From: Patescibacteria group bacterium UBA1406
Lineage (GTDB): Bacteria > Patescibacteriota > Microgenomatia > UBA1406
DNA: 64,000 bases
Direction: 5' to 3'
Assembly (NCBI GenBank): GCA_002305675.1
Contig: DBQA01000001.1
Location: 189 to 64,188, forward strand
The notes beneath the pieces are model-generated. The model worked only from the letters and a program-made list of their open reading frames with translations, did not search any database and was not told the DNA's origin. The translations under genes and the position numbers were made by a program. Shown one piece after another: positions 2,543-62,147 of this stretch (position 1 is its first letter; each line of letters starts with the position of its first letter).

Positions 2543-2587
2543 AACTCCCCCTTGCTAATTTTTCCCGCAGCGCCTACAATATATTCC

Positions 2588-5475: not shown

Positions 5476-5491
5476 GATTGATTGGAGAGTA

Positions 5492-13247: not shown

Positions 13248-14307
<1,060 letters not shown>

Positions 14308-28262: not shown

Positions 28263-29254
28263 AATCCGTGGCCATGATCGGAGAACTGGTATGTTGCCAA
28301 ATTCCCGTGCTTTTCACCGAGTAACCGCCAGACATGCCCGATAATGTCCGTATAGGTCGCCGCCTCGCCACCCGTCAGGGCGACGTGTTTTTTCCTGTCC
28401 AAAGGCCCCCATCTTTCGACAGACGAATGGGCGGTGAACAGGATAATGCTTTTTGTACCCACCGCCTGGGCCAGATGGGAAACACCTGTGTCATTGGCAA
28501 TAACGAGCTCTGCATTCCTTAGGAGTTCCGCCAGGCACCCTAGGCCGGTCTGGCCTCCTAGGTTGGCGGGGTGGTGGGCCATGAAGTGCTCCACCTGCTC
28601 CAGAAGATCGATCTCTTTGCGGATCCCGGTCAGGGCGGTGGCAAAGCCGGCCGCCTCGAGAGTGTCGCCGAGACGGGCAAACAGGGCAGGGTCGTGCCTT
28701 TTCCGCGGGTCCTTGGCACCAGGATGGAGAACGGTATAAGGTCTCCCCGTCAGGCCGGCCCTTTCCCTAATCATAAGGTATTCCTCCTTCTCCTCGCCTG
28801 ATACCGGGAACTCCAGATGGTTGCCCTGAAGCGGGATGCCCCTGGCCTTTACGAGCATCAGATATTTGACGACCTCGTGTTCCTCCTCCTGCCAGGGCAG
28901 GGTGAGCCCGTAGCCGACCACTTCCTTTGCCTGAAAATCGGCCGCCACCCTGTTTGTTATCTCACCGCTGCCATGCATCTGCCAGACAATGTCAAACCTC
29001 TCCCGCCGCATCCTTTCCATGAATGACTCTGTCCTGGCACTGTCATACGGCTGCTCTGGCAAACCGGGATAGCCCGGGAACTCGATGAACCTGTCCAGAT
29101 ATTTACCGAACCTGTCGGCAAAAGGAGCGGCCCAGGGCAGGGAAATAAGACAGATCTCGGCCCGGCGGTAGTGCCGTCTCAGTGCTCTCAGGGCAGGAAC
29201 GAGGCAGATAAGGTCGCCCAATTCCAAGGCCCTGAATATGGCAATTTTTCTCAT
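28259..29254 (-). CDS. Glycosyltransferase family 9 (heptosyltransferase-like)
   Basis: 331 aa. RALELGDLICLVPALRALR and NDTGVSHLAQAVGT. Confidence 0.75.
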   Translation of the reverse strand: MRKIAIFRALELGDLICLVPALRALRRHYRRAEICLISLPWAAPFADRFGKYLDRFIEFPGYPGLPEQPYDSARTESFMERMRRERFDIVWQMHGSGEITNRVAADFQAKEVVGYGLTLPWQEEEHEVVKYLMLVKARGIPLQGNHLEFPVSGEEKEEYLMIRERAGLTGRPYTVLHPGAKDPRKRHDPALFARLGDTLEAAGFATALTGIRKEIDLLEQVEHFMAHHPANLGGQTGLGCLAELLRNAELVIANDTGVSHLAQAVGTKSIILFTAHSSVERWGPLDRKKHVALTGGEAATYTDIIGHVWRLLGEKHGNLATYQFSDHGHGL

Positions 29255-29618: not shown

Positions 29619-31415
29619 ATGAAAGGGGAGTACGGGAAAATAATCAGGAATGTATGGCGACTCCTGGTTATTACCTGGGAAGAGGATAAGGTTCTTTTGG
29701 CCGCTTACTTTTCTACCTCTTTTTTAGGGGCCGTCCTTCTCTATGTGGTGTACTATGTGTACAAGCTGATGATCGACCAGGTGGCCGCAGAGATTACCAT
29801 GGGGGGCTTGTCATCGGTCCTTTTTATCATCGTTTCCACCTTCCTGTTCTTTGAGTACCTCTCGCGGTTCGTCAATTTCACCTTCAACCAGTACTACTTC
29901 GATTACCTGATCCGTGCCAAGCTGCAGAACGCCCTGACCAGAAGATTCATGAACAAGTTGGCCGAGCTCGATTTCGGCCTCCTGGAAAGAGGGGATGTCA
30001 GGAACCTGATCGCCAAAGTGGAGGGGTCATACTCATACCGCCTACCGGAGATACTCAAGACCCTTAATGCCATCGTCTATAATCTCGCCGCGCTCCTGTT
30101 TTCCATGCTCATTGCCCTCCGGCTGAACCCTGGCTATTTCGTCATCCTTGCCCTGGTGTCCGCTCCGATCTATTATCTGAGGTCGAAATACGGGAACGCC
30201 GCCTGGTCCCAATATTCCAAGAACGCCTCCGAAACGAACTATATCTGGTATCTCAGGTCCCTGTTCACGAACTTCCAGACGCTCGCAGAAATGAAGATCT
30301 ACGGCCTCCGACAATATTTCATCGACCGGGCTTCAAGCTTTCAGAAAAAGGTCCTTTCCGACTACCAGCGGCCGATACGGACCTACACCTTGTTGTCCAG
30401 TCTGAGCTTCATCCTGATCCCTCTGGCCATCTTCTTTGCCGTCCTCAACTTCATCGGAGCGGTCCGCACGGAACGTTACTCGATCGGCGACTTCACCTTC
30501 TTCCTGAACACCTTGTTCACTTTTTCCGGCCAGATCTCGAGCGTCCTTCTGAATTTCGGTCTGGTGACCGAGAACAGCCTTTTCCTGCATGACTATTTCA
30601 AGCTCCAGGACATCCACAACCAGATCGCCGCACCACGCCCTGCCGTCCGCCTGGAAGGATTGCGGCCCCGGGAGATCGTTTTCGAGAACGTCAGTTTCAG
30701 TTACCAGGGGAGCCGTAACCTGTCGCTGAAGAATGTGAACGTGGTTATTGAGAAAGGCCGGAACGTCGCCATCGTCGGCCATAACGGGGCAGGAAAGAGC
30801 ACTTTCATCAAACTGCTCCTTAGGTTTTACGACCCGACCGAGGGACGGATATTGATTGACGGGAAAGACCTGCGAAGAATAGACCTTAGGGAATGGTATG
30901 CGCATATCGGCATCCTGTTCCAGGATTTCGCCCGGTATTTCACCACTCTAAGGGAGAACATCAGGTTCGGCAACCTTCACCGACCGCCCAACGGCGGGAT
31001 CAGCGAGGCCCTGCACAAATCCGAGGGCGAGGACCTCCTGGAATTTCTGCCTAATAAATATGACCAGATCCTGGGACGGTGGTTCGAACACGGCGTGGAG
31101 CTGTCAGGCGGACAGTGGCAGAAGGTGGCCATTGCCCGGGCCATCTACCGCAATGCCCCCATCCTGATCATGGACGAGCCGACCTCGGCCATCGACGCCG
31201 AAGCGGAACATGCCATCTTCAATAATCTGGACAGTCTCTATCGGGATAAGAGCCTGCTTTTCATCTCCCACCGTTTCTCCACGGTCAGGAAAGCGGACCG
31301 GATATTCGTGTTTGAAAAAGGACAGGTGGTAGAGAAGGGAAGCCACTTGGAACTTTTACGTCAAAACCGGTTATATGCCCACATCTTCCGGCTACAAAGC
31401 CGGGGGTATGAGTAA
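29619..31415 (+). CDS. ABC exporter, fused permease-ATPase (MsbA/lipid-flippase-like)
   Basis: 598 aa with six N-terminal TM helices. Walker A GHNGAGKST, signature LSGGQWQKVAIARA, Walker B ILIMDEPTSAID. Confidence 0.85.
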   Translation: MKGEYGKIIRNVWRLLVITWEEDKVLLAAYFSTSFLGAVLLYVVYYVYKLMIDQVAAEITMGGLSSVLFIIVSTFLFFEYLSRFVNFTFNQYYFDYLIRAKLQNALTRRFMNKLAELDFGLLERGDVRNLIAKVEGSYSYRLPEILKTLNAIVYNLAALLFSMLIALRLNPGYFVILALVSAPIYYLRSKYGNAAWSQYSKNASETNYIWYLRSLFTNFQTLAEMKIYGLRQYFIDRASSFQKKVLSDYQRPIRTYTLLSSLSFILIPLAIFFAVLNFIGAVRTERYSIGDFTFFLNTLFTFSGQISSVLLNFGLVTENSLFLHDYFKLQDIHNQIAAPRPAVRLEGLRPREIVFENVSFSYQGSRNLSLKNVNVVIEKGRNVAIVGHNGAGKSTFIKLLLRFYDPTEGRILIDGKDLRRIDLREWYAHIGILFQDFARYFTTLRENIRFGNLHRPPNGGISEALHKSEGEDLLEFLPNKYDQILGRWFEHGVELSGGQWQKVAIARAIYRNAPILIMDEPTSAIDAEAEHAIFNNLDSLYRDKSLLFISHRFSTVRKADRIFVFEKGQVVEKGSHLELLRQNRLYAHIFRLQSRGYE

Positions 31416-32528
31416 GGTATCTTCCACCCGGGTTTCTTTAACAGTCCGGTCGGCCTTCAGAAGTTCAATGGCGGTCAAGGCCACTTCCGCCACTTTGACC
31501 CCCTTGGTGAACGATGTTAGGTGATCACACCCGATCTTCGGTTCAAAAGGAAACTCCTCGGCGCAGTTCATCCCACACATGGGGCAGTTGATGGTCCATG
31601 AGGCGAGGGCTCGGTGCCGGCGTCGATGAAGAGGAGCGGAGTTGATAAGGTTGGCACACCAGAAAACACCTACGGCCGGCGTATCCAGAGCATAGGCCAG
31701 GTGATAGGGACCGGTATCGTTACTGATGAGGAGAGCTGCGGCCGACAATAGGCCGGTCATCGCCCGGATAGTCAGTTTACCTGCCAGGTTCTCACTGGGC
31801 TCAGTCATTCTGGTCTGTACCTCCCGAACAACGTCCATTTCATCCTCAATGCCGGTGATAACAACCCTGAAACCCCGCTTGGCGAAAAAATCCGCGACGG
31901 CCGCAAACCTGTCCGCCGGCCAGCGGCGTCTCGGGTCCGAGGCGCCGGGGTGAACGACAATAAAACGACTACTGATATCCGCGACCTCCTTTATCTCCCT
32001 GGCATCCTTGTCCGTCAGGCTTACTACCGGTCTGGTTTGGGATGAGGTGGCACCGACACGGGAAACCACTTCCAGGTAGCGCATGTACTCGTTCTGGTAA
32101 TAGACATACGGCACATTGATGTCGAGGGCAGCCGCATCGGGGGTTCTTAAACCTACTGTCAGGGATGCTCCCAATTTGTGAATAAACGGATTGGACTGTC
32201 GTCCGCCGCCATGGAGCTGGAAAGCAAGATCGAAACTTTCCGCCTGCATCTTCTGGAAAAAGGCATCCGTCTCCCTTTGGTCCTCATGCCGGCCGGGCTC
32301 CTGCCTGAGTCCGTCGCTGACAGGCACGACTACCGTCCTGTCTATCACTCCTGGTCTGCCTGCCAGAAACAGGCGATGCCACGGCCGCCCAAGATAGACA
32401 ATCTCGCTCTCAGGATAGGTTTCCCTCAGGGCGGTCAGGGCGGGAAGAATAAAAATGAAATCGCCCAATCCGTTCGCCCTCAGCACGGCTATCTTTTTGA
32501 CATTGACCAGCTTCCTGTTAACCATCAT
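31392..32528 (-). CDS. Glycosyltransferase family 9 (heptosyltransferase-like) with a Cys-rich C-terminal extension
   Basis: 378 aa. RANGLGDFIFILPALTALRE and NDTGPYHLAYALDTP. The C-terminal CANL...CPMCGMNC cluster is unusual for GT9. Confidence 0.7.
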   Translation of the reverse strand: MMVNRKLVNVKKIAVLRANGLGDFIFILPALTALRETYPESEIVYLGRPWHRLFLAGRPGVIDRTVVVPVSDGLRQEPGRHEDQRETDAFFQKMQAESFDLAFQLHGGGRQSNPFIHKLGASLTVGLRTPDAAALDINVPYVYYQNEYMRYLEVVSRVGATSSQTRPVVSLTDKDAREIKEVADISSRFIVVHPGASDPRRRWPADRFAAVADFFAKRGFRVVITGIEDEMDVVREVQTRMTEPSENLAGKLTIRAMTGLLSAAALLISNDTGPYHLAYALDTPAVGVFWCANLINSAPLHRRRHRALASWTINCPMCGMNCAEEFPFEPKIGCDHLTSFTKGVKVAEVALTAIELLKADRTVKETRVEDTLLIPPAL

Positions 32529-37613: not shown

Positions 37614-37622
37614 TGCTATAAT
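37614..37622 (+). promoter_or_regulatory. Extended -10 box TGcTATAAT, 6 nt before mini-ORF ATG 37629
   Basis: atcTGcTATAATcagtttATG. Confidence 0.4.
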
Positions 37623-37969: not shown

Positions 37970-37978
37970 TGCTATAAT
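37970..37978 (+). promoter_or_regulatory. Extended -10 box TGcTATAAT, 8 nt before ychF ATG 37987 (leaderless-type)
   Basis: tagTGcTATAATttacctctATG. Confidence 0.45.
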
Positions 37979-41728: not shown

Positions 41729-43141
41729 ATGATGAATGAACCTATCTGCTTCCTGGACGTCGAGACGACCGGCGGGAGCCCTTACCGAAGCCGCATCATC
41801 GAGATCGGCATCATTAAGGTCCAGAACGGCCGGGTGGCCAAAAAGTATGAGCGACTGATAAACCCGGAGACAGCCGTCGACCCGTTCGTCAGCCGCATGA
41901 CCGGCATCCGCCAGAAAGACCTCGAAAACTCACCCACATTCATGGACCTCGCGGACGAACTCCTTTATCTCCTCGAGGATTCGGTGATCGCCGCCCACAA
42001 TGTCCGCTTTGACTACGGTATGCTCAGGCACGAGTTCCGGCGCTCCGGGATTAAGTTTCAAAGCCGGCATTTCTGTACCGTCCGGCTGGCCAGGCAGCTG
42101 TATCCGGGCAGACAGAACTACAACCTGGACGCGCTCATCGAAAGCTTCAACCTGACCTGTCTCCATCGCCACCGGGCCTATGACGACGCGAAAGCCATCT
42201 GGGACTTCTACAAACTGGCCGAAACCCAAAACCCGGCCGAGGTTTTCCACGAGGCCTTGAAAACCATCATGAAAAGGCCGACCATCCCAAGCCACATTCC
42301 CGCCGACATTCTGGACGACCTGCCTGAGGCGCCGGGAGTTTACACATTCTATGCCGAAAATAACGTACCGCTTTACATAGGTAAAAGCAAGAACGTGAGG
42401 GAAAGGGTGTTTTCCCATTTCGTCAACGACCACCAGTCCGCAACCGACTTAAAGATCTCACAGCAGGCGGTGGATGTAGAAGTTCTGGAGACCGCCGGAG
42501 AGCTCGGGGCATTGCTCCTGGAGTCGGACATGGTTAAAAAGCGCCAGCCTCTCCTGAACCGACAGCTGAGGGACATAAAGCTGATGGCGCTCCTGACAAA
42601 AACAGCGACCAAGAACGGCTATTATTCAGTGGAGATAACTCAAGCCAGCCGGATCCCGGTCGAGTTGGCCGGTCGCATCATGGGGGTCTTCAGGACCAAG
42701 AAGCAGGCGGAAGATTTTTTATATGAACTGGCCAAGGAGCACCACCTTTGTCCCAAGCTCCTCGGCCTGGAAAAGGGGAGGGGGGCTTGCTTCTATTCCC
42801 AGATAGAGGAATGCTTCGGAGCTTGTACCGGCCAGGAGCCGTTCCTCAAATACAACCTGCGCTTCGACGACGCCTTCTACAAGCGCAAGATAAAAGCCTG
42901 GAGATTCGACGGTCCCATCGTCATCAGGGAAGCAGGGGAGAGGGAAGAGCTTTTCGTGGTAGACAAATGGTGCCTGCTCGGCCGTTACGACCCCGGAACC
43001 GAAGGGTTCGATCTCTCCTCGGCCGAATACCGCTTCGACTACGATGTCTATAAAATACTTTACAGGTATCTGAACAGACCAGGAAAAAAGCTGCTTCACA
43101 GAATCAGCATGCCGTCACCGAAGCTGAAGAAGCGGTATTGA
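41729..43141 (+). CDS. DEDDh 3'-5' exonuclease (DnaQ-like) fused to a GIY-YIG nuclease domain
   Basis: FLDVETTG, AHNVRFDYGML and HRAYDDA (ExoI-III), then PGVYTFYAENNVPLYIGKSKNVRERVFSHF (GIY-YIG). Confidence 0.8.
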   Translation: MMNEPICFLDVETTGGSPYRSRIIEIGIIKVQNGRVAKKYERLINPETAVDPFVSRMTGIRQKDLENSPTFMDLADELLYLLEDSVIAAHNVRFDYGMLRHEFRRSGIKFQSRHFCTVRLARQLYPGRQNYNLDALIESFNLTCLHRHRAYDDAKAIWDFYKLAETQNPAEVFHEALKTIMKRPTIPSHIPADILDDLPEAPGVYTFYAENNVPLYIGKSKNVRERVFSHFVNDHQSATDLKISQQAVDVEVLETAGELGALLLESDMVKKRQPLLNRQLRDIKLMALLTKTATKNGYYSVEITQASRIPVELAGRIMGVFRTKKQAEDFLYELAKEHHLCPKLLGLEKGRGACFYSQIEECFGACTGQEPFLKYNLRFDDAFYKRKIKAWRFDGPIVIREAGEREELFVVDKWCLLGRYDPGTEGFDLSSAEYRFDYDVYKILYRYLNRPGKKLLHRISMPSPKLKKRY

Positions 43142-44112
43142 CGGGATACGGCCACCCGGTACAGGTCCAGGGTCTTTTCCCGGCTACCGATGAAGGCCGA
43201 GATCATGAGCAGCAGGGAAGAGCGGGGGAGGTGGAAGTTCGTCACCATCCCGTCCACCGTTTTGAACTTGTAGCCCGGTGTGATGAAAAGGTCCGTTTCA
43301 CCCTGCTTGCCAGCGGCCAGGCTTTCGAGCGTCCGCACCACGGTCGTCCCGACGGCGATGATCTTCCGGCCCGACTTTTTGGCCGCTGCAATTTTTTCCA
43401 GAAGCTCCGCGGTCACCGAGAAGCGCTCCGTATGCAGCCTGCCAGTCCGGAAATTCTCTTCGGTCAGGGGCGCGAACGTCCCCAGACCGACATGCAGGGT
43501 AACAAAGTCGTACCCAACACCTATCGTCCTTATCCTCTCTAAGAGCCTCTCCGTGAAATGCAGCGAGGCCGTGGGGGCGGCACTTGACCCATACTCGCGG
43601 GCAAAGATGGTCTGGTACTCCGTCCGCAGCCTCTTTTCGCTGTCCGGCTTTTCAATATAAGGCGGAATGGGCATATGGCCATGCTTTTCGAGATAGCTAA
43701 TAAGCTCGCTATATGAAAGGGGAGAGCGGACCAGAAAATACTTCCCCTCTTGGGCAGTGACCGTTATCCTGCCGCCGCCTTCAAGGACGATCTCTTCACC
43801 CGGTTTTATATACCTGTCGAGCATGGCCCTGTACGTATTTTTTCCGGCACTCTCCAAGAAGAAAACCTCCAGGCGGCCGCCGGTCCTTTTCCGGCCGAAA
43901 ATACGGACGGGGATTACCTTGGTATCATTGAATATCAATAAAGAGTCTGTCGGCAGATAATCCGGCAGATCCAGAAAAACCCCCTCCCTGAGAGTTCCTA
44001 TATCCCGGTCATAGATCATCAGCCTGGCAGTGTCGGGCGGGATTGAAGGGCGCTGGGCAATAAGCTCTTTTGGGAGATTGTAATCGAAATTCCAGATCTC
44101 GTCGTACTTCAT
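43096..44112 (-). CDS. queA: S-adenosylmethionine:tRNA ribosyltransferase-isomerase
   Basis: 338 aa. FNYNLPKELIAQRP, GHMPIPPYI and VGTTVVRTLES. Confidence 0.9.
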   Translation of the reverse strand: MKYDEIWNFDYNLPKELIAQRPSIPPDTARLMIYDRDIGTLREGVFLDLPDYLPTDSLLIFNDTKVIPVRIFGRKRTGGRLEVFFLESAGKNTYRAMLDRYIKPGEEIVLEGGGRITVTAQEGKYFLVRSPLSYSELISYLEKHGHMPIPPYIEKPDSEKRLRTEYQTIFAREYGSSAAPTASLHFTERLLERIRTIGVGYDFVTLHVGLGTFAPLTEENFRTGRLHTERFSVTAELLEKIAAAKKSGRKIIAVGTTVVRTLESLAAGKQGETDLFITPGYKFKTVDGMVTNFHLPRSSLLLMISAFIGSREKTLDLYRVAVSRQYRFFSFGDGMLIL

Positions 44113-46689: not shown

Positions 46690-46707
46690 GAAATAATTAT
46701 AGCAGGA

Positions 46708-50857: not shown

Positions 50858-50885
50858 ACTCTTATTATATCATTAAAGCTCTCCC

Positions 50886-56749: not shown

Positions 56750-57817
56750 TTAATTACGGGCTTTGGAACACCCCGGTGTTTTTTGCAATTTCTCGGTCAG
56801 CCGGGTGAACGTCCGCAGATTATGGATGCTGGACAGGCGCCAGGCCAGGGAATCCCCTATCTTGAACAGGTGATGGAGATAAGCCCGGGAGTATCTCTGG
56901 CAGGTATAACAATCACAGACATCACTGATCGGCTTAGAGTCCGTGCTGTACCTGTCACGGTTGATATAGATAAAGCTACTGCTTAAGTCGTCGTCCAGCA
57001 CATACAGCCGGTGGTGCCGGGCATCCCTGGTCGGCAGAACGCAGTCGAACAGATGATAACCGTATTTATGGCCTTCGATGATATCCTGGGGCTTCCCCAC
57101 GCCCAGGGCGAAGCGCAGCTTGCTGTCGGGCGTCAGGGAAGCGTTGAAACGGAAAAGGTCCCGGTTGAACCTCCCTTCGGCATCCACCGGCCAGCCGCCG
57201 TATCCGTAGCCGTCAAAGCCAATCTTCAGAAGCTCGTTGGCGCATTGCTCACGCAATCGTTTATCTTCCCCACCCTGGATAACGCCGAACAATAGCGGTC
57301 TGTTGCTTTCTTTCATCTTCCTTTTCTCGATCTGCCGCCAAAACTCCTCCTGGCTCCGTTTAGCCCACTCCACGGTCAGTCGCACGCTCTCCTTAATTCC
57401 GTCCTTTTTGGCTTTGGGGTTCGTGAAATAATCCAGGCAGACCATGATGTCCGCGCCCAGGGCGAACTGGGTTTCTATTGACCTCTCCGGTGTCAGTCGG
57501 GCGGTTTCCCTTTTCCCTTTAATGGTCCAGTCGAACTCCACCCCGTCCTCCGTTATGCGGCCGCGGGTTCTGCCTTGGTGGATCAGGGACATTATCTGGA
57601 AGCCCCCCGAGTCCGAAGCGACCAGCCCGGAAAAATTCATCAGGGCCTTGACCCCGCCTACTTCCTCCAATACGTCCAGGCCGGGCTCCAGCATCAGATG
57701 ATAGGTGTTGACGACTACGCCCTTGATCTTGGCGGCGGAAAGGTCCGGCGCATCCACGCCCTTGACCACGGCCCGTGTGCCGTCGGGCAGAAAAATAGGA
57801 TATTTTGCTTTTATCAT
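56750..57817 (-). CDS. tgt: Queuine tRNA-ribosyltransferase (tRNA-guanine transglycosylase)
   Basis: VASDSGGFQ, GVIQGG and the zinc motif CDCYTCQRYSRAYLHHL. Confidence 0.9.
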   Translation of the reverse strand: MIKAKYPIFLPDGTRAVVKGVDAPDLSAAKIKGVVVNTYHLMLEPGLDVLEEVGGVKALMNFSGLVASDSGGFQIMSLIHQGRTRGRITEDGVEFDWTIKGKRETARLTPERSIETQFALGADIMVCLDYFTNPKAKKDGIKESVRLTVEWAKRSQEEFWRQIEKRKMKESNRPLLFGVIQGGEDKRLREQCANELLKIGFDGYGYGGWPVDAEGRFNRDLFRFNASLTPDSKLRFALGVGKPQDIIEGHKYGYHLFDCVLPTRDARHHRLYVLDDDLSSSFIYINRDRYSTDSKPISDVCDCYTCQRYSRAYLHHLFKIGDSLAWRLSSIHNLRTFTRLTEKLQKTPGCSKARN

Positions 57818-57832
57818 GCGCTAATTCTACCA

Positions 57833-57841
57833 TGGTATAAT
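57833..57841 (+). promoter_or_regulatory. Extended -10 box TGgTATAAT upstream of the peptidase / ATP-grasp operon
   Basis: caTGgTATAATatc, 23 nt before GTG 57865, in the divergent gap with tgt. Confidence 0.45.
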
Positions 57842-57864
57842 ATCTTAAGCTCAATGTAAAGCCG

Positions 57865-58392
57865 GTGCGGCAGAAGAAAAGTTACTGGTGTGGCCCCACT
57901 TCCCTGAAGATGGTGCTGGATTATCTGGGCATCAGAAAGAACTCCAAGGAAATCGCACTGGCCACCCAGTGCTCGGCGGATGCCGGCGTGGAAGCCGACA
58001 GCATGGTCAAATATGCCGAGTCCCTTGGCCTAAGGGCTTTCTTTAAGGACAACTCCACCATCGAGGAACTGCGCCACTACGTTCATGAGAAGAATATCCC
58101 GGTCATTGTGGACTGGTTCGACAGCGACGACAGCCATTACTCGGTGGTGGTGGGTGTGAACGGCAAATACATCTACGTCATCGACCCATATGTCGGTTAC
58201 CTGAAGAGCATCAAGATAAACCGTTTCCTGCGGATCTGGTTCGATTTCCCCGGCAGCATGATCAGGTCAACCGCCGACATCTATCTGCGGCGGATGGTGG
58301 TGGTATTGCCCAAAAATGGAGTTGACAAATCAGCGGAATTTAATATAAATAGTAAATCTGAAATCATCGATCATACCCATGAGCAAGGCTGA
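57865..58392 (+). CDS. Papain-like cysteine peptidase, C39-like domain (Peptidase_C39_2-type)
   Basis: 175 aa from a GTG start. The Q-x5-C motif RQKKSYWCGPTSLKMVLDYLG gives the oxyanion Gln and the Cys nucleophile. DDSHYSVVVG gives the His. IDPY gives the Asp. Confidence 0.7.
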   Translation: MRQKKSYWCGPTSLKMVLDYLGIRKNSKEIALATQCSADAGVEADSMVKYAESLGLRAFFKDNSTIEELRHYVHEKNIPVIVDWFDSDDSHYSVVVGVNGKYIYVIDPYVGYLKSIKINRFLRIWFDFPGSMIRSTADIYLRRMVVVLPKNGVDKSAEFNINSKSEIIDHTHEQG

Positions 58393-59428
58393 AGAAAAAC
58401 CTGGCGGTGAAAGAGCGCCAAACGGCCAAAACGGCAGCTATATCCTTCCCAAAAAGGTCGGTATCATCTTCAGCGATGTCAAACGGGAGTACTTCCCCAC
58501 CGAAGCGCAGTTCATCACGGAAAAGACGGCGCTCAGGGATGCCACGGTTATAGCAGGCTATATCAACAAGCTGAACATCGAGACCATCCTTTATCCCGGC
58601 ACGCCCGAAGTGGCGGAAAAACTCCGCCATGACAAGCCGGATATGGTCCTGAACCTGGTGGGGTCGGTCCGTGGCAACGAATACCTGGCCTCCACCATCC
58701 CCGCCATGCTCGAGTTTTTGGATATTCCATATACCGGGGCCGGCATTCTCGGCGAGTCGCTCTCATACAATAAATTCCTCGTTAAAAAGCTCCTGCAGCA
58801 GCACGGCATTCCGTTACCGAACTACCAGTTGTTCAACACCCCCTCCGATCCCCTCGACCCCATTCTGAGGTTCCCTCTCATCTCCAAGCTCAACGAGATC
58901 CACGGCTCGGTGGAGATCACCCGCAAATACGCGGTCTCGGAGAACGAGAAAGACCTGCGCTCCCGCCTCAAATTCCTGATGCAGACGTATGAGCAGCCCG
59001 TCGTGGTAGAGGAGTTCATCGTCGGCCGGGAGATCTCGGCCTTCCTGCTGTGGGGGGTAAAGCGCAAGGTCTATATGAGTGAGAACATTTTCGAGAAGCC
59101 CCAGGGAAAATACGTGTTCGCCGATTTTGAGACCCAGTGGCTGGAAAAGGAGTCCCATATCACCAACCAGAAATATGAGGACCCCGTGCTCAGGGAGCTT
59201 GTCAAAAAAGCCTTTGAGGTTACCCGCATGGCCGATTACGGCAAATTCGACATCCGTATAGACGGCGCCGGCCGCTACTACTTTATCGATTCTAACAGCA
59301 ATCCGTTCTTCGGCCCAAAGGAGATCGACTGCCCCATGGCCAGCGTCCTCGAGATGTACGGAGTGACCTTCACGGAGATACTGAAACGCCTGTTGTCAAA
59401 TACCATGCGCGACGCAACGCGCGATTGA
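58379..59428 (+). CDS. ATP-grasp ligase, D-alanine--D-alanine-ligase-family-like
   Basis: 349 aa. The layout (central LDIPYTGAGILGESLSYNKFLVKKLL, then ...EEFIVGREIS..., then C-terminal DIRIDGAGRYYFIDSNSNP) matches the Ddl-type ATP-grasp fold. Overlaps the peptidase stop by 14 nt. Confidence 0.75.
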   Translation: MSKAEEKPGGERAPNGQNGSYILPKKVGIIFSDVKREYFPTEAQFITEKTALRDATVIAGYINKLNIETILYPGTPEVAEKLRHDKPDMVLNLVGSVRGNEYLASTIPAMLEFLDIPYTGAGILGESLSYNKFLVKKLLQQHGIPLPNYQLFNTPSDPLDPILRFPLISKLNEIHGSVEITRKYAVSENEKDLRSRLKFLMQTYEQPVVVEEFIVGREISAFLLWGVKRKVYMSENIFEKPQGKYVFADFETQWLEKESHITNQKYEDPVLRELVKKAFEVTRMADYGKFDIRIDGAGRYYFIDSNSNPFFGPKEIDCPMASVLEMYGVTFTEILKRLLSNTMRDATRD

Positions 59429-59440
59429 CATAAAATATAT

Positions 59441-60862
59441 ATGGCATCTACCGTCCAAAACAACCAAAAACCAAGTAACGGCGCCACGAACGGCGACCGC
59501 CGGAGCGAATTTTTCGTATACCTTTACAACATCGTGGAGGACGAATGGAACTTCATCAACGCCCTCTCCACCGAGGAAAAACGCCAGCATGAGCTGGTTA
59601 ACTCCGTCAATACCGCCGACGCCTTCTTCCTGGCATCAACATCGGAAGACACTACGGTCTATGTCTCGCCCATCCCCATCTCCAAAGCTTTCCGTGACTA
59701 TGCCCAGGCGGTCACCGGCGGCCATGTCACGGAAGTGGTGGTGCCCGAGTTCAAAAGCGGTAAGATCTGCCTGGACCTGATGGCCGACCGGAATCTGTTC
59801 AAGTCCCTCGTCGACAGGGCCAGGCACTATAAACGGCTTGTATTGACTGGCTACGCTGCCACGGAGGAGTTTTACGCCCTCAAGGAAGGGCTTATCAAGG
59901 AAGGGTTGAATGTTTATACTCCCGAGGCCCCGGATATCGACTCGGCCTGGACGGTCAACTTCTTCGGCAGCAAATCCGGCATCAGGCAGCTGGCGCAGCA
60001 GAGCACGGCCGTGGAGCCGGACCTGGTGATGCCCGAGGGGGTCATCTCGGTGGGAGTTTTCGACGCCTCAAAGATAGCCGCCAACAAATATCTAAAGGAG
60101 AGAGGGGTGGTCATCAAGACCAACAAAGGCTCGGGCGGCAGCGGGGTGCTCATTTTCCGCGACGGCGACCTGCCCGCCACCTATACCGAGTGCGAAAAGA
60201 CCATCAGCCAGATCCTCAGCCGCGAACCGTACTGGCAAAAATACCCGATCGTCATTGAAAGCCTGGTCAAGATAAACCCGGCCGTGGGTGGCGGGTTTCC
60301 CAACGTGGAGTTCAAGATCCTCAAGAACGGCCATATCGATATGCTTTACTACTGCAAGTGTATGGTCACGCCCCAGGGGGCTTTCTACGGTGTGGATATC
60401 AACGAGGACGTCATCAGCGAACGATATGCCGCCCGGATTGTGGACACCGGCTTTTACGTCGCCGAGAAGTACGCTTCTGCCGGCTACCGCGGCCACTTCG
60501 ATGTGGACATGATCGCCGCCAAGAACAACATCTTTGTCTGCGAGTCGAATACCAGGAACACCGGCGGCACGGACATCTTCAAGCTCGCGCTGCGCCTGAT
60601 AGGTAAGGACTTCATGGAGGACGCCTATATCATCAGCCGCAGCCACCTGCCCCTGCACAGCCAGACGCCGCCGTTACTCGCGGATGTTCTCGAGGCGCTT
60701 TCCCCGCTTCTTTTCTCGCACCGTAAAAAGGAGGGGGTGGTCGTCAACTCGGAGAACAAGCTTAAGGAAAAGGAGTTGATCTATTCCATTTTCGCCGCCG
60801 ACAAAAAAAGGGCCTATAAACTCGAAGACCAGATGAAGCAGTTACTGAATAAACTGACTTGA
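59441..60862 (+). CDS. ATP-grasp peptide-ligase-like protein with an N-terminal pre-ATP-grasp domain (PGM1-like)
   Basis: 473 aa. GVVIKTNKGSGGSGVLIF glycine-rich loop, then ...GHFDVDMI...VCESNTRNTGGT Mg/ATP site-like region. The large N-terminal accessory domain is as in PGM1-type ligases (recalled). Confidence 0.65.
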   Translation: MASTVQNNQKPSNGATNGDRRSEFFVYLYNIVEDEWNFINALSTEEKRQHELVNSVNTADAFFLASTSEDTTVYVSPIPISKAFRDYAQAVTGGHVTEVVVPEFKSGKICLDLMADRNLFKSLVDRARHYKRLVLTGYAATEEFYALKEGLIKEGLNVYTPEAPDIDSAWTVNFFGSKSGIRQLAQQSTAVEPDLVMPEGVISVGVFDASKIAANKYLKERGVVIKTNKGSGGSGVLIFRDGDLPATYTECEKTISQILSREPYWQKYPIVIESLVKINPAVGGGFPNVEFKILKNGHIDMLYYCKCMVTPQGAFYGVDINEDVISERYAARIVDTGFYVAEKYASAGYRGHFDVDMIAAKNNIFVCESNTRNTGGTDIFKLALRLIGKDFMEDAYIISRSHLPLHSQTPPLLADVLEALSPLLFSHRKKEGVVVNSENKLKEKELIYSIFAADKKRAYKLEDQMKQLLNKLT

Positions 60863-61884
60863 AAAAACTGACCATAGCTTTCCTCTACAACATCAGGCAT
60901 GTCTACCCGGACCCCGGGGACGCAGCGGCACATAACCAAGCCGACTACGACGACCCGCCGACCATCCAGCACATGACCAGGCACCTGACAGAGATGGGTT
61001 ACGAGGTCATCCCCATAGAAGCCAATGAGGATGCCTATTTCAAGCTGCATCAGAACCGTGACCGGATAGGCCTGGCCTATAACTACTCCATGGGCCTGTA
61101 CGGAAAGTCGCGCTATGCCCATCTGCCCTCTATTCTGGAGATGCTCCGTATCCCCTACACCGGCTCCTCCCCTTTGACCCAGGCGTTAGTTTTAGATAAG
61201 GCCAAGATGCAGGAGGTTTTGAAAGCGAGCGGCGTCCCCACCCTGCCGTCGCAGGTATTCAGGAAGGCCGACGAACCTCTATCCCCGGGACTGACATACC
61301 CTTTGATCGTTAAACCCGTTTCCCAGGGTTCTTCGGCCGGTATCACCAAGGACAGCGTGGTCAACAACGCCGAAGAGCTGAGAAGGCAGGTCGGGTTCAT
61401 CCTGAAGACATTCCAGCAGCCCGCTCTGGTACAAAGGTTCCTGACGGGCCGGGAATTCTCCGTGCCTGTCTTAGGGAACCCGCCCTCGGTCATGCCTATT
61501 ATCGAACCCGTTTTCTCCAAACTGCCCGAAGGTTTTCTCCCGTTCGATTCCCTGGAGGTGAAATGGATATTCGAGGAGCAGGTCGAGGAAAACCATCTGC
61601 AGTGCCCCGCCGAACTTAACGAGGAGTTGAGGAAAGAGATAGGGACCATTGCCCTAAACGCCTGGAACGCCCTCGATATCCAGGATTATTGCCGGATGGA
61701 CATGCGGCAGGACCATATCACCGGCCGGATCTATGTCCTGGATGTCAACTCGCCCGCCGGAATGATCCCGCCGGAAGTGTCCATGTCCTCCTATTTCCCC
61801 CTCTCCGCTCGGGCAGCCGGCCTGAGCTACCAGGAACTCTTAGGTAAGATCATCGATTCCGCCCGCAAGCGCTACGGGATTTGA
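60859..61884 (+). CDS. ATP-grasp ligase, D-alanine--D-alanine-ligase-family-like (second copy)
   Basis: 341 aa. LRIPYTGSSPLTQALVLDKAKMQEVL, PLIVKPVSQGSSAGI and RMDMRQD...IYVLDVNSPAG. 4-nt overlap with the preceding gene. Confidence 0.75.
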   Translation: MKKLTIAFLYNIRHVYPDPGDAAAHNQADYDDPPTIQHMTRHLTEMGYEVIPIEANEDAYFKLHQNRDRIGLAYNYSMGLYGKSRYAHLPSILEMLRIPYTGSSPLTQALVLDKAKMQEVLKASGVPTLPSQVFRKADEPLSPGLTYPLIVKPVSQGSSAGITKDSVVNNAEELRRQVGFILKTFQQPALVQRFLTGREFSVPVLGNPPSVMPIIEPVFSKLPEGFLPFDSLEVKWIFEEQVEENHLQCPAELNEELRKEIGTIALNAWNALDIQDYCRMDMRQDHITGRIYVLDVNSPAGMIPPEVSMSSYFPLSARAAGLSYQELLGKIIDSARKRYGI

Positions 61885-61912: not shown

Positions 61913-61983
61913 GCGGGTGTAGTTCAATGGTAGAACGAATCCCTTCCAAGGATTAGACGAGGGTTCGATTCCCTTCACCCGCT
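61913..61983 (+). tRNA. tRNA-Gly (anticodon TCC)
   Basis: Hand-folded. Acceptor GCGGGTG/CACCCGC. D-arm GTTC/GAAC. Anticodon stem AATCC/GGATT with loop CTTCCAA. T-arm GAGGGTTCGATTCCCTT. No encoded CCA. Confidence 0.9.
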
Positions 61984-61992
61984 CAAAATCCC

Positions 61993-62021
61993 TTGCATCG
62001 GGATACCGCTTGGGCTATAAT
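61993..62021 (+). promoter_or_regulatory. Promoter TTGCAT-N17-TATAAT immediately upstream of the 5S rRNA
   Basis: TTGCAT 61993-98 and TATAAT 62016-21. The predicted start, about 7 nt downstream, coincides with the 5' end of 5S helix I. Confidence 0.6.
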
Positions 62022-62028
62022 ATCCTTT

Positions 62029-62147
62029 GCTCTGGTTATTTGAGCGGCCTGGAACCACCTCTTCCCATTCCGAACAGAGTCGTGAAACGGGCCAGCGCTG
62101 ACGATACTTAGGACTTGTTTCTAGGGACAATAAGTCATAGCCAGGGC
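62029..62147 (+). rRNA. rrf: 5S ribosomal RNA (stand-alone, no 16S/23S in the window)
   Basis: The core CCCATTCCGAACAGAGTCGTGAAACGGGCCAGCGCTGACGATACT matches the universal bacterial 5S loop B/C-helix III/IV region. Helix I pairs CTGGTTAT with ATAGCCAG. Followed by T7. Confidence 0.85.

What the first reader, a model, noticed from the sequence alone, without database searches (positions are those of the whole stretch)
57833..61884. Operon of a C39-like cysteine peptidase followed by three ATP-grasp ligases: candidate non-ribosomal peptide or peptide-tag synthesis system
Seen in sequence. There are four co-directional genes with overlapping or near-abutting boundaries (58379/58392 and 60859/60862). 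A TGgTATAAT box lies upstream. The tRNA-Gly gene follows 28 nt after the last stop. Gene 1 is a 175-aa papain-like domain with Q-x5-C (RQKKSYWCGPTS), His (DSHYSVVVG) and Asp. Genes 2 and 4 are Ddl-family-like ATP-grasp enzymes. Gene 3 is a 473-aa ATP-grasp with a large N-terminal accessory domain, resembling PGM1-type peptide ligases. Established knowledge: ATP-grasp enzymes build D-Ala-D-Ala, cyanophycin, poly-glutamate tails (RimK), dipeptide antibiotics and pheganomycin-type peptides. Papain/C39-like domains act as leader peptidases or as transpeptidases (phytochelatin synthase). Inference: three successive ligases plus a transpeptidase/peptidase could assemble a tri- or tetrapeptide, or a repeating peptide polymer, and then mature or transfer it. 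They could also rebuild cell-wall stem peptides in an organism lacking canonical mur genes nearby. No transporter, precursor gene or immunity gene is evident in the operon.
Basis: partly seen in the sequence, partly recalled or inferred. Interest (0 to 1): 0.72.

Follow-up and report, generated by a model that had tools for sequence, protein, structure and literature searches.

The report
Modular ATP-grasp peptide-ligase cassette with peptidase
Four adjacent genes in an uncultivated ultra-small (Patescibacteria/Microgenomates-type) bacterium encode three different ATP-dependent amide-bond-forming ligases and a small cysteine peptidase. These gene families turn up next to each other in many related genomes, so they probably build an unknown short peptide without the ribosome.

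Summary
In detail: there are four real, co-directional, tightly packed genes. They are g1 57865-58392, g2 58379-59428, g3 59441-60862 and g4 60859-61884, followed by tRNA-Gly 28 nt later.

- **g1** is a standalone C39 cysteine peptidase with its catalytic residues intact.
- **g2 and g4** have the D-Ala-D-Ala ligase (Ddl) fold but are not ordinary Ddl. They score below the curated cut-offs, their D-Ala site is altered, and no mur genes lie nearby.
- **g3** is a PGM1/BesA-type ATP-grasp peptide ligase, by profile and by predicted fold.

The exact four-gene order was found only in this genome. Every pairwise adjacency recurs, though: g3-g4 in about 21 of 79 species loci, g1-g2 in at least 10 different flanking contexts, and also g2-g3, g2-g4 and tandem g3 paralogues. 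No transporter, precursor peptide, carrier protein or mur gene is associated.

Best reading: a carrier-free, ribosome-independent peptide or amide assembly pathway. It is built from interchangeable stand-alone ATP-grasp ligases, with a facultative product-specific cysteine amidase. The product is unknown, and a cell-wall peptide role is not excluded. I found no paper describing this cassette. I rate it a new variant of a known kind, of moderate interest.

The parts
57833..57841 (+). Extended -10 promoter-like box TGGTATAAT upstream of g1
   Evidence: Exact match. The motif occurs 7 times in the window against 0.77 expected by chance. Four other copies sit 6-8 nt before an ATG. No promoter activity was tested.
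57865..58392 (+). g1: standalone C39-family cysteine peptidase (175 aa, GTG start). Soluble, with no exporter domain.
   Evidence: Pfam C39_2 57 bits and C39 52 bits, both above cut-off. Closest solved relative is the LahT150-type double-glycine protease domain, 6mpz. Q3, C9, H91 and D107 are invariant or nearly so in a 31-sequence family alignment. No transmembrane segment. The N-terminus is about 6 residues shorter than in the family; the position of the family's Met is AAG at 57847-57849.
58379..59428 (+). g2: Ddl-fold ATP-grasp ligase, a conserved Patescibacteria-specific subfamily (349 aa). The recurrent partner of g1.
   Evidence: Dala_Dala_lig_C 1.6e-10. NCBIfam Ddl 88.6 bits against a cut-off of 243. 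22% identical to E. coli DdlB. ATP/Mg residues are kept, but K215 and S150 are not conserved, Y216 is mostly W, and the Ddl N-terminal loop is replaced by the invariant motif SxVKREYFPTE. 1511 homologues; the top 120 are 63-74% identical. Lies immediately downstream of a g1 orthologue in 18 (+2 partial) of 80 g1 loci, in at least 10 flanking contexts.
59441..60862 (+). g3: PGM1/BesA-type ATP-grasp peptide ligase with an N-terminal pre-ATP-grasp domain (473 aa). The core gene of the cassette.
   Evidence: Profile against PDB: 8ynd 3.3e-8, PGM1 3wvq 8.2e-8, BesA 8yi6 9e-3. AF2 model pLDDT 80.5. Foldseek: 8ynd E 1.6e-21 (TM 0.66/0.75), 3wvq 2.5e-18, 8yi6 2.7e-18; the next ATP-grasp clades score 1e-12 or weaker. 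Catalytic K178, K226, D356 and E368-x-N370 are invariant in orthologues and paralogues. Relatives occur in 139 GTDB species representatives.
60859..61884 (+). g4: Ddl-fold ATP-grasp ligase, a second distinct subfamily (341 aa, TTG start overlapping the g3 stop). The usual downstream partner of g3.
   Evidence: Dala_Dala_lig_C 9e-29. NCBIfam Ddl 154 bits against a cut-off of 243. 29% identical to DdlB. S150, K215, R255, D257 and N272 are kept, but Y216 is an invariant W (EVKW), L282 is Y, there is a 5-residue PPE insertion, and the N-terminal GGxSxExxVS loop is replaced by YNVRH...DFDDP. Orthologues (49-60% identical) occur in 35 of 79 g3 loci, in most (about 31) directly after the g3-type block.
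61913..61984 (+). tRNA-Gly(UCC), 28 nt after g4. An adjacent feature whose relation to the cassette is unknown.
   Evidence: ARAGORN and Rfam, 74.9 bits. A tRNA gene lies within 350 nt downstream of the ATP-grasp block in 32 of 69 evaluable species loci against about 2 expected; the tRNA identities vary.

Best explanation
**What it is.** The four genes are a lineage-specific (Microgenomates-type Patescibacteria), cytoplasmic pathway that forms amide bonds without the ribosome and without carrier proteins. It is made of stand-alone ATP-grasp ligases.

**How it most likely works (inferred).** Each ligase would activate a carboxylate as an acyl-phosphate using ATP, then join it to the amine of an amino acid or a growing peptide. 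The three ligases belong to three distinct subfamilies: g2 and g4 have the Ddl fold, and g3 is PGM1/BesA-type. They would therefore add different residues in succession, giving a short peptide or a peptide conjugate.

**Modularity (shown).** Related genomes carry one to four such ligases in different combinations, with g3 as the core.

**The peptidase (inferred).** g1 is a facultative accessory coupled specifically to g2. It most likely acts as a product-specific cysteine amidase or peptidase that trims, recycles or limits what g2 makes. The logic would be that of the amidase and synthetase halves of glutathionylspermidine and trypanothione synthetase. Less likely, g1 acts as a transpeptidase.

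**Shown versus inferred.** Shown: gene structure, family and fold assignments, intact catalytic residues, recurrent neighbourhoods, and the absence of exporter, precursor, carrier or mur partners. Inferred: sequential action, a peptide product, and the role of g1. The product and substrates are unknown.
For: - **All three ligases keep the ATP-grasp catalytic set**. The consensus set is described in PMC4431377.
- **g3 is closest to enzymes that ligate an acid to the N-terminus of amino acids or peptides**: PGM1, BesA and 8ynd.
- **g2 and g4 differ from Ddl at the D-Ala-binding positions** and fall below the curated Ddl cut-offs.
- **A neighbourhood network links all four families.**
  - g3-g4 in about 21 species loci, g3-g3'-g4 in 4, g2*-g3-g4 in 4, g3-g2-g4 in 2-3, and g3-g3'-g3'' with or without g2* in 4.
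  - g1-g2-g3 (L024/L095), g1-g2-g4 (L096/97) and g1-g2-g3'' (L109).
  - g2-g4 and g2-g2-g4 (L175-L177).
- **g1 to g2 is always same-strand and abutting**, across at least 10 flanking contexts.
- **The genes overlap or abut in the window**.
- **All four proteins are soluble**: no hydrophobic segment.
- **Other neighbours are unrelated housekeeping genes.** A Pfam census of 139 neighbour clusters found no enrichment of Mur ligase, transpeptidase or ABC exporter families among the 25 commonest families it reports.
- **A papain-like amidase paired with an ATP-grasp synthetase has precedent**: PMC2427367.
Against: - No substrate, product or expression data exist.
- The exact four-gene order is unique to this genome.
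- 26 species loci show g3 alone within 10 kb, so g3 can work without adjacent partners, or its partners lie elsewhere in the genome.
- g1 is absent from 78 of 79 g3 loci, and about three quarters of g1-family genes (60 of 80 loci) have no ligase neighbour. Its link to the pathway is therefore weaker than the link among the ligases.
- In this genome g1 appears to have lost its ancestral start codon and may be impaired.
- High conservation and housekeeping surroundings fit a cell-envelope or protein-modifying role just as well.
- I could not check whether these genomes also carry a canonical ddl.
Confidence: 0.5

Rival explanations
1. Cell-envelope peptide synthesis. g4 and/or g2 would be the lineage's working D-Ala-D-X ligase. 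The g3-type ligases would add side-chain or cross-bridge residues to peptidoglycan precursors, as ATP-grasp D-aspartate ligases do in enterococci, or would build a peptide on another wall polymer.
For: - g2 and g4 are the closest Ddl relatives found in 2.15 Mb of fetched Patescibacteria DNA.
- g4 keeps S150, K215, R255, D257, N272 and S281.
- The families are strongly conserved, with 63-69% mean column identity, and sit among housekeeping genes.
- Some wall-related genes lie near a few loci: FemAB, DegT and Transglut_core upstream of g2-g4 in L175; VanY near L090; YkuD and Amidase_3 in L005.
- Reports of a complete peptidoglycan pathway in Microgenomates (PMC7143001) may be counting these genes as ddl. 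That last point is my inference.
Against: - No Mur ligase, MraY, MurG or PBP lies next to the cassette in the window (30 ORFs scanned).
- None of these families was among the 25 commonest Pfam families that the census of 139 neighbour clusters reports.
- The Ddl N-terminal D-Ala1 loop is not recognisable, Y216 is W, and scores fall far below the curated Ddl cut-offs.
- NCBI's pipeline leaves these proteins as 'hypothetical'.
- The wall-related neighbours are sporadic.
Confidence: 0.2
2. Two independent systems that merely happen to sit side by side here: a g1+g2 ligase/amidase pair, and a g3+g4 ligase pair, with unrelated products.
For: - The full four-gene order is unique to this genome.
- g1-g2 pairs mostly occur far from any g3 or g4, for example between dnaK and dnaJ in L091.
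- g3-g4 mostly occurs without g1 or g2.
Against: g2 or close g2-like genes abut g3 and/or g4 in many independent arrangements: L024/L095, L055, L057, L067, L096/97, L109, L175-L177, and the g2*-g3 loci. That is hard to explain without a shared function. In the window all four genes are packed with overlaps behind one promoter-like box.
Confidence: 0.15
3. A reversible peptide tag on a protein, or on another macromolecule. The ligases would add amino acids to a protein C-terminus or side chain, as RimK, LysX or tubulin-tyrosine-ligase enzymes do. The C39 peptidase would remove the tag or expose the acceptor.
For: - g2 is very highly conserved: 63-74% identity over the top 120 clusters.
- The combination of a peptidase with a ligase fits tagging logic.
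- The g1-g2 pair is inserted between dnaK and dnaJ in one lineage.
- tRNA genes directly follow the cassette in 32 of 69 loci, which hints at a link with the translation apparatus.
Against: - The characterised members nearest to g2, g3 and g4 (Ddl, PGM1, BesA) act on small molecules or free peptides.
- No candidate acceptor protein is co-conserved.
- Matches to the RimK family are marginal: E 0.022 for g2.
Confidence: 0.1
4. Maturation of a ribosomally made peptide (RiPP). The C39 peptidase would remove a double-glycine leader, and the ATP-grasp enzymes would modify or extend the core peptide, in graspetide or pheganomycin style.
For: - g1 belongs to the double-glycine peptidase family.
- PGM1 itself ligates onto ribosomal peptides, and graspetide loci occur in candidate phyla radiation (CPR) bacteria (PMC8939145).
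Against: - There is no room for a precursor gene. The intergenic gaps are 47, 12 and 28 nt.
- No ABC exporter or conserved small ORF is found in relatives.
- None of the ligases matches a graspetide-type NCBIfam model.
- PMC8939145 calls PGM1 only distantly related to graspetide ligases.
Confidence: 0.03

Closest known systems
PGM1 (pheganomycin peptide ligase, PDB 3WVQ/3WVR), BesA (L-propargylglycine-L-glutamate ligase, 8YI6) and a Streptomyces 'ATP-grasp peptide ligase' (8YND)
   Same: g3 shares their full-length fold: pre-ATP-grasp domain, ATP-grasp core and C-terminal domain. TM scores are 0.63-0.75 with E 1e-16 to 1e-21. It matches them by sequence profile and keeps the catalytic Lys/Lys/Asp/ExN set.
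   Different: - Only 16-18% identical, and the sequence match covers mainly the C-terminal third.
- Pfam PGM1_C and PreAtp-grasp hits are below threshold for the window protein.
- The known enzymes sit in actinomycete natural-product clusters. g3 sits among housekeeping genes of reduced genomes, often with tandem paralogues and Ddl-fold partners.
D-alanine-D-alanine ligase (E. coli DdlB, PDB 2DLN/1IOV)
   Same: g2 and g4 have the same fold and Pfam domain, are 22-31% identical to DdlB, and conserve the ATP and Mg2+ ligands K97, K144, E180, E187, D257, E270 (D/E) and N272.
   Different: - Both fall below the curated Ddl cut-offs: 154 and 89 bits against 243.
- The N-terminal loop that holds Glu15 is replaced by family-specific motifs.
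- Tyr216 becomes Trp.
- g4 has Leu282 as Tyr and a PPE insertion. g2 lacks Lys215 and Ser150.
- There are no mur or dcw neighbours.
Glutathionylspermidine synthetase/amidase and trypanothione synthetase-amidase
   Same: A papain-like cysteine amidase is encoded together with an ATP-grasp C:N ligase, giving opposed synthetic and hydrolytic activities on one amide (PMC2427367). g1 and g2 form such a pair in at least 10 genomic contexts.
   Different: - Here the two activities are separate genes, not one fused protein.
- The peptidase is C39-type, not CHAP-type.
- The ligase is Ddl-fold, not GspS-type.
- Substrates are unknown. The pairing is facultative.
Closthioamide assembly (ATP-grasp CtaD with the papain-like ligase CtaG)
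   Same: Non-ribosomal peptide assembly by stand-alone enzymes, combining an ATP-grasp enzyme with a protease-like enzyme that forms rather than breaks amide bonds (PMC7183216; PMC12865890).
   Different: CtaG works on substrates tethered to two peptidyl carrier proteins. No carrier protein or phosphopantetheinyl transferase is present in or near this cassette.
Mur ligase pathway (MurC-MurF plus Ddl) and stand-alone L-amino-acid ligases (e.g. LdmS, PDB 7R8Q)
   Same: The logic matches: soluble, carrier-free, ATP-dependent ligases that each add one residue. LdmS-type ligases appear among the weaker structural matches to g3 (PMC9486568).
   Different: MurC-F belong to a different enzyme superfamily. 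The characterised L-amino-acid ligases fall in other ATP-grasp clades and usually act singly.
C39 double-glycine leader peptidase domains of bacteriocin exporters (e.g. LahT150, PDB 6MPZ)
   Same: g1 has the same domain and the same Gln/Cys/His/Asp catalytic residues.
   Different: g1 is a free 155-175 aa protein with no ABC transporter fused or adjacent. It has no precursor gene nearby. It also carries a family-specific conserved C-terminal motif, RVWFDFPG.

Membership tests
D-alanine-D-alanine ligase (Ddl), for g2 and g4 | ATP-grasp fold with the Dala_Dala_lig_C domain | tested here: met
   Pfam PF07478: g4 9e-29, g2 1.6e-10. The best PDB sequence hits are all Ddl or Van ligases.
D-alanine-D-alanine ligase (Ddl), for g2 and g4 | Score above the curated family cut-off of the NCBIfam Ddl models | tested here: not met
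   g4 scores 154.2 bits and g2 88.6 bits against the 243 cut-off of NF002378. Every other Ddl or Van model is also far below its cut-off.
D-alanine-D-alanine ligase (Ddl), for g2 and g4 | ATP and Mg2+ binding residues (DdlB K97, K144, E180, E187, D257, E270, N272) | tested here: met
   Conserved in the alignment with E. coli DdlB. E270 is D or E.
D-alanine-D-alanine ligase (Ddl), for g2 and g4 | D-Ala binding residues (Glu15 in the GGxSxExxVS loop, Ser150, Tyr216, Lys215, Arg255, Ser281/Leu282). The residue list is from my own knowledge of the DdlB literature. | tested here: not met
   - The Glu15 loop is not recognisable in either family.
- g4: Y216 is an invariant W, L282 is Y, and there is a PPE insertion.
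- g2: K215 is not conserved, S150 is G, and R255 is K or R.
- The alignment around the Glu15 loop is uncertain. A Glu one position away (g2 E48) could substitute.
D-alanine-D-alanine ligase (Ddl), for g2 and g4 | The only ddl-type gene of the genome, or association with mur/dcw genes | tested here: inconclusive
   No mur or dcw gene lies beside the cassette in the window or among 139 neighbour clusters. Whole genomes could not be searched, so I do not know whether a canonical ddl exists elsewhere.
PGM1/BesA-type ATP-grasp peptide ligases, for g3 | Full-length fold: pre-ATP-grasp domain, ATP-grasp core and PGM1-type C-terminal domain | tested here: met
   AF2 model pLDDT 80.5. The top 19 Foldseek PDB hits are 8ynd/8ynq, 3wvq/3wvr and 8yi6, with TM 0.61-0.75. 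They are clearly separated from other ATP-grasp clades.
PGM1/BesA-type ATP-grasp peptide ligases, for g3 | Significant sequence match to the family models (Pfam PGM1_C PF18105, PreAtp-grasp PF18604) | tested here: inconclusive
   - The window protein scores PreAtp-grasp 17.2 bits against a cut-off of 27.5, and has no PGM1_C hit.
- Among 35 orthologues, 11 hit PGM1_C and 15 hit PreAtp-grasp at E<=0.01.
- The family profile against PDB gives PGM1 8.2e-8 and 8ynd 3.3e-8.
PGM1/BesA-type ATP-grasp peptide ligases, for g3 | Catalytic residues of ATP-grasp peptide-bond ligases (linker Lys, strand-2 Lys, Asp, ExN, Arg) | tested here: met
   K178, K226, D356, E368 and N370 are invariant across g3 and its paralogues; R350 is invariant among the g3 orthologues. 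The residue scheme follows PMC4431377.
PGM1/BesA-type ATP-grasp peptide ligases, for g3 | Ligation of an acid to the N-terminus of an amino acid or peptide | not testable with these tools
   Needs enzyme assays.
C39 bacteriocin-processing peptidase, for g1 | C39 domain with the Gln/Cys/His/Asp catalytic residues | tested here: met
   Pfam scores above cut-off. C9, H91 and D107 are invariant and Q3 nearly invariant.
C39 bacteriocin-processing peptidase, for g1 | Fused to or encoded beside an ABC exporter, with a double-glycine leader peptide substrate gene | tested here: not met
   Standalone 155-175 aa protein. Its neighbours are g2-type ligases or housekeeping genes (argS, ileS, smpB, infC, dnaK/dnaJ). 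There is no exporter and no precursor ORF.
Glutathionylspermidine/trypanothione synthetase-amidase type ligase-amidase pair, for g1+g2 | A papain-like cysteine amidase and an ATP-grasp ligase encoded together | tested here: met
   g1 to g2 is same-strand and abutting or overlapping in the window, in L024, in L090-L093, and in 18 (+2 partial) of 80 metagenome loci.
Glutathionylspermidine/trypanothione synthetase-amidase type ligase-amidase pair, for g1+g2 | CHAP-type amidase and GspS-type synthetase domains acting on glutathione-polyamine amides | tested here: not met
   No CHAP or GspS Pfam or NCBIfam match was found. g1 is C39-type and g2 is Ddl-type. The resemblance is one of logic only.
Graspetide (RiPP) ATP-grasp macrocyclases | Match to graspetide-type ATP-grasp models, with an adjacent precursor peptide | tested here: not met
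   No such NCBIfam or Pfam hit, and no precursor ORF.

The most novel reading that the evidence does not exclude
Microgenomates-type Patescibacteria possess a lineage-wide, probably essential, ATP-grasp-based counterpart of the Mur ligase pathway. A variable set of two to five stand-alone ligases (g3, g3', g3'', g2, g4) would build a conserved oligopeptide on an as yet unknown acceptor: a cell-envelope polymer, a cofactor-like small molecule or a macromolecule. A dedicated C39-type cysteine enzyme would edit, recycle or transfer the product. Because these organisms have almost no other biosynthetic capacity, the product would be a defining molecule of their biology.
Probability: 0.2. Interest if true: 0.8.

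Novelty: new variant of a known kind. Interest (0 to 1): 0.55.

Why it matters
Patescibacteria (also called the candidate phyla radiation, CPR) have tiny genomes and lack most biosynthetic pathways. It is therefore notable that many species keep several paralogous peptide-bond-forming ligases, strongly conserved, among their housekeeping genes. Whatever these enzymes make is likely to matter to the cell: a small peptide, a modified wall peptide or a tag.

All three ligase subfamilies, and the standalone C39 family, are uncharacterised and mostly annotated 'hypothetical' or, misleadingly, 'D-Ala-D-Ala ligase'. If g2 and g4 are being counted as Ddl in pathway reconstructions, statements that the peptidoglycan pathway is complete in these lineages may need re-examination.

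The system also offers compact, carrier-free amide ligases of possible use in biocatalysis.

Tried and rejected
- **Ordinary Ddl.** Rejected on curated cut-offs, active-site residues and context.
- **RiPP or graspetide system.** No precursor, no exporter, no model match.
- **Anti-phage defence.** No PADLOC match for any of the four proteins.
- **Functionally informative neighbours.** Clustering of ORFs around 79 g3 loci and 85 g1 loci gave only housekeeping synteny: ClpB-like, Tmk, GalU-like, EF-Ts, S2, RseP, RRF, ArgRS, IleRS, SmpB, IF-3. A Pfam census of 139 neighbour clusters showed no enriched wall, transport or carrier family.
- **A canonical ddl or mur cluster in Patescibacteria DNA.** I searched 2.15 Mb of fetched DNA with E. 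coli dcw proteins. Only mraY (L102/L103) and ftsA/ftsZ (L164) turned up, with no Mur ligase or second ddl nearby, so the result is uninformative.
- **AlphaFold model of g2.** It was poor (pLDDT 54.7), so I ran no fold search on it.
- **Source names for the window proteins and for ten distant g3-family relatives.** None were informative.
- **Literature.** Searches for ATP-grasp with Roizmanbacteria, Patescibacteria, CPR or peptidoglycan found no description of this cassette. The key review, Iyer et al. 2009 on amidoligases, is not held in the library. The 8YND structure paper was not found.

Full report
**1. The observation**

The region holds four co-directional ORFs on the + strand:
- g1 57865-58392 (175 aa, GTG start)
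- g2 58379-59428 (349 aa)
- g3 59441-60862 (473 aa)
- g4 60859-61884 (341 aa, TTG start)

g1 and g2 overlap by 14 nt, g3 and g4 share TTGA, and g2 and g3 are 12 nt apart. tRNA-Gly(UCC) follows 28 nt after g4, and a 5S rRNA gene follows 46 nt after that.

The TGGTATAAT box at 57833-57841 is real. The motif TGNTATAAT occurs 7 times in the window against 0.77 expected. Four other copies lie 6-8 nt in front of an ATG, which suggests that leaderless transcripts are common in this organism.

All four proteins lack hydrophobic segments, so they are soluble.

One detail needs attention. g1 is about 6 residues shorter at its N-terminus than its family, which begins M-L-N/K-I/V-x-P-x-R-Q. The codons upstream of the GTG encode the homologous K-L-N-V-K-P-V, with AAG (57847-57849) where the family has Met, and a TAA three codons further up. 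Two independent assemblies of the same organism are identical here. The ancestral start codon therefore seems to be lost, and g1 may be N-terminally truncated or poorly expressed in this genome.

**2. What the proteins are**

*g1* matches Peptidase_C39_2 and Peptidase_C39 above the Pfam cut-offs. Its best solved relative is the double-glycine protease domain 6mpz. In a 31-sequence alignment C9, H91 and D107 are invariant and Q3 nearly so. There is also a family-specific motif, RVWFDFPG. g1 belongs to a large family of free-standing 155-175 aa peptidases: 528 database hits, and at least 520 metagenome stretches.

*g2 and g4* carry the Ddl C-terminal domain, and their best PDB sequence matches are all Ddl or Van ligases. 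They nevertheless score 88.6 and 154.2 bits against a curated Ddl cut-off of 243. I aligned both with E. coli DdlB (fetched; alignment):
- Both keep the nucleotide and Mg2+ ligands.
- g4 has an invariant Trp in place of Tyr216 (motif EVKW), Tyr in place of Leu282, and a five-residue PPE insertion.
- g2 lacks Lys215 and Ser150.
- Both replace the N-terminal GGxSxExxVS loop, which holds Glu15, with their own invariant motifs: YNVRH...DFDDP in g4 and SxVKREYFPTE in g2.

The alignment around that loop is uncertain, so I treat the loss of Glu15 as probable rather than certain. g2 and g4 are only about 30% identical to each other, so they are two distinct subfamilies.

*g3* has only marginal Pfam hits. 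However:
- A profile of 35 orthologues matches the Streptomyces ATP-grasp peptide ligase 8ynd (3.3e-8), PGM1 (8.2e-8) and BesA (9e-3), and nothing else in the PDB.
- An AlphaFold model (pLDDT 80.5) matches these same three proteins over its whole length. TM scores are 0.61-0.75 with E 1e-16 to 1e-21. Other ATP-grasp clades follow at 1e-12 or weaker.
- The canonical catalytic residues are invariant (the residue scheme is from PMC4431377).

**3. Organism and distribution**

Homologues of all four proteins that carry a label come overwhelmingly from Patescibacteria of the Microgenomates group: Roizman-, Gottesman-, Beckwith-, Chisholm-, Pace- and Wirthbacteria. A few automatic labels are evidently wrong.

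g3 relatives occur in 139 GTDB species representatives. In a library of 1.84 billion representative proteins, the whole g3 superfamily numbers only 749 at E<=1e-3.

The families are strongly conserved. Mean column identity is 63% for g3, 68% for g4 and 69% for close g2 orthologues.

**4. Is it a cassette?**

I fetched 79 species-level loci around g3 relatives and 80 metagenome loci around g1 relatives, and searched them with the four window proteins. The exact order g1-g2-g3-g4 occurs only in this organism's own contigs (L007, L008). The pieces recur constantly, however:

| Arrangement | Where seen |
|---|---|
| g3-g4 | about 21 species loci |
| g3-g3'-g4 | 4 |
| g2*-g3-g4 | 4 |
| g3-g2-g4 | 2-3 |
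| g3-g3'-g3'', with or without g2* | 4 |
| g2*-g3-g3'' | 2 |
| g1-g2-g3 | L024/L095 |
| g1-g2-g4 | L096/97 |
| g1-g2-g3'' | L109 |
| g2-g4 | L175/176 |
| g2-g2-g4 | L177 |

Here g3' and g3'' are paralogues of g3, about 33% and about 25% identical to it, and both keep all catalytic residues. g2* denotes g2-like genes 34-42% identical to g2.

g3 stands alone within 10 kb in 26 loci.

The g1 family is mostly found without any ligase, among housekeeping genes. In 18 (+2 partial) of 80 loci, though, and in at least 10 different flanking contexts, it is followed on the same strand, abutting or overlapping, by a g2 orthologue. One of those contexts is an insertion between dnaK and dnaJ.

In short, three ligase families form a tight but modular neighbourhood network. 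The peptidase is a facultative partner of g2 specifically.

**5. What is not there**

Clustering of all neighbouring ORFs gave only housekeeping synteny. A Pfam census of 139 neighbour clusters showed no enrichment of Mur ligases, transpeptidases, Fem transferases, ABC exporters or carrier proteins.

Thirty large ORFs of the window include no mur, ddl or PBP gene. There is no room for a precursor peptide gene inside or beside the operon. None of the four proteins matches an anti-phage defence model.

I could not test whether these genomes have a canonical ddl elsewhere.

**6. Mechanism**

The best-supported reading is a carrier-free, ribosome-independent amide-ligation pathway. Several stand-alone ATP-grasp ligases of distinct specificity would each add a residue through an acyl-phosphate intermediate. 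The outcome would be a short peptide or a peptide conjugate in the cytoplasm.

The variable number and mix of ligases suggests products that differ in length or composition between lineages.

g1, with an intact Cys/His/Asp triad and tight coupling to g2, most plausibly hydrolyses or trims the g2 product. The best-known precedent for a papain-like amidase paired with an ATP-grasp synthetase is glutathionylspermidine and trypanothione synthetase-amidase (PMC2427367). A papain-like enzyme acting as a ligase beside an ATP-grasp enzyme is known from closthioamide, but that system needs carrier proteins, which are absent here (PMC7183216, PMC12865890).

Family membership, intact catalytic residues and gene association are shown. 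Sequential action, the nature of the product and the direction of g1's reaction are inferred.

**7. Rivals**

- **Cell-envelope peptide role** (confidence 0.2). This is the strongest rival. It is favoured by the high conservation, the housekeeping setting, the Ddl-like residues that g4 retains, and sporadic wall-related neighbours: FemAB, DegT and Transglut_core in L175, VanY in L090, YkuD and Amidase_3 in L005. It is disfavoured by the altered D-Ala site and the absence of any consistent mur association.
- **Two independent modules juxtaposed here by chance** (0.15). This is weakened by the many g2-g3 and g2-g4 adjacencies.
- **A reversible peptide tag on a macromolecule** (0.1).
- **RiPP maturation** (0.03).

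The last two have little support.

**8. Novelty and verdict**

The superfamilies and the chemistry are known. The three ligase subfamilies, the standalone peptidase family and their modular association are not described in any paper I could find. Databases call them 'hypothetical' or 'D-Ala-D-Ala ligase'. I class the finding as a new variant of a known kind.

It is interesting because organisms with minimal biosynthetic capacity conserve up to four peptide ligases side by side. The product may be important for their biology, and annotating g2 and g4 as Ddl may distort cell-wall pathway reconstructions. No product or substrate can be named from sequence, so I set interest at 0.55.

Noticed in passing
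window 57838-57867: g1 seems to have lost its ancestral start codon. The family begins M-L-N-I-I-P-V-R-Q. The window encodes K(AAG 57847)-L-N-V-K-P-V-R-Q in frame, with a TAA at 57838-57840 and no ATG, GTG or TTG before the GTG at 57865. Two other assemblies of the same organism (L007, L008) are identical here.
   Followed up: partly
window 5491-5499(-), 37614-37622(+), 37970-37978(+), 46696-46704(-), 50864-50872(-), 57833-57841(+), 9894-9902(-): Extended -10 boxes (TGNTATAAT) occur 7 times against 0.77 expected. Four of them end 6-8 nt before an ATG start codon, so leaderless mRNAs appear common in this organism. Shine-Dalgarno-like sequences are not evident before g1-g4.
   Followed up: partly
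window 61913-61984; loci L010-L088: A tRNA gene lies within 350 nt downstream of the ATP-grasp gene block in 32 of 69 evaluable species loci (about 2 expected from local tRNA density), but upstream in only 1 of 71. The tRNA differs between lineages: Ile(GAU)+Val(UAC) in either orientation, Ile(UAU), Gly(UCC) or Gln(UUG). Shared synteny explains part of this, but not the changing identity. Unexplained.
   Followed up: partly
window 62031-62146: A 5S rRNA gene (Rfam 68.8 bits) stands alone 46 nt after tRNA-Gly. There is no 16S or 23S rRNA gene in the window, so the 5S gene lies apart from any 16S/23S gene present in this 64-kb window. A TATAAT lies just upstream, at about 62019-62024.
   Followed up: no
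window about 2500-32600: A large glycan-biosynthesis cluster, unusual for a presumed single-membrane Patescibacteria cell. It includes:
- three family-9 (heptosyltransferase-like) glycosyltransferases (21515-22594, 28259-29254, 31392-32528);
- an HldE-like sugar kinase/cytidylyltransferase fusion (22597-24096);
- a GT4 glycosyltransferase fused to a SIS (sugar isomerase) domain (25403-27292);
- further GT4 enzymes (9791-11050, 27264-28262);
- GDP-mannose 4,6-dehydratase (13248-14228);
- an epimerase (2552-3529).
   Followed up: no
window 43096-44112(-) and 56750-57817(-): QueA and tRNA-guanine transglycosylase (TGT) genes are present. TGT is divergently adjacent to the cassette here, and directly adjacent to the g3 orthologue in the closest syntenic relative, L009.
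   Followed up: no
L009 9409-13003: The closest syntenic relative has the same TGT ... RNase J frame. There, the g3 orthologue is followed by a g3'' paralogue on the opposite strand, a FolC/Mur-ligase-type gene and an F420-ligase (CofE)-type gene, instead of g1, g2 and g4. This is another set of amide or glutamyl ligases at the same spot.
   Followed up: no
L094 2766-5582: A 189-aa member of the g1 peptidase family, in a contig whose protein is labelled Deltaproteobacteria, is followed by an AstE/AspA-type (succinylglutamate desuccinylase/aspartoacylase) gene and a 424-aa protein with no domain match, rather than by a Ddl-fold ligase.
   Followed up: no
L093 3889-5995 and L104 1799-4017: In two loci the g1-g2 pair is preceded by a further small ATP-grasp gene (DcsG_N/GSH-S_ATP type, 275-289 aa) and a Cys/Met-metabolism PLP enzyme. 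It is followed by a DUF2207 membrane protein.
   Followed up: no
L029 93-7618: The g3-g4 pair appears twice as a perfect inverted duplication on a 7.7 kb contig. This is probably an assembly artefact.
   Followed up: no
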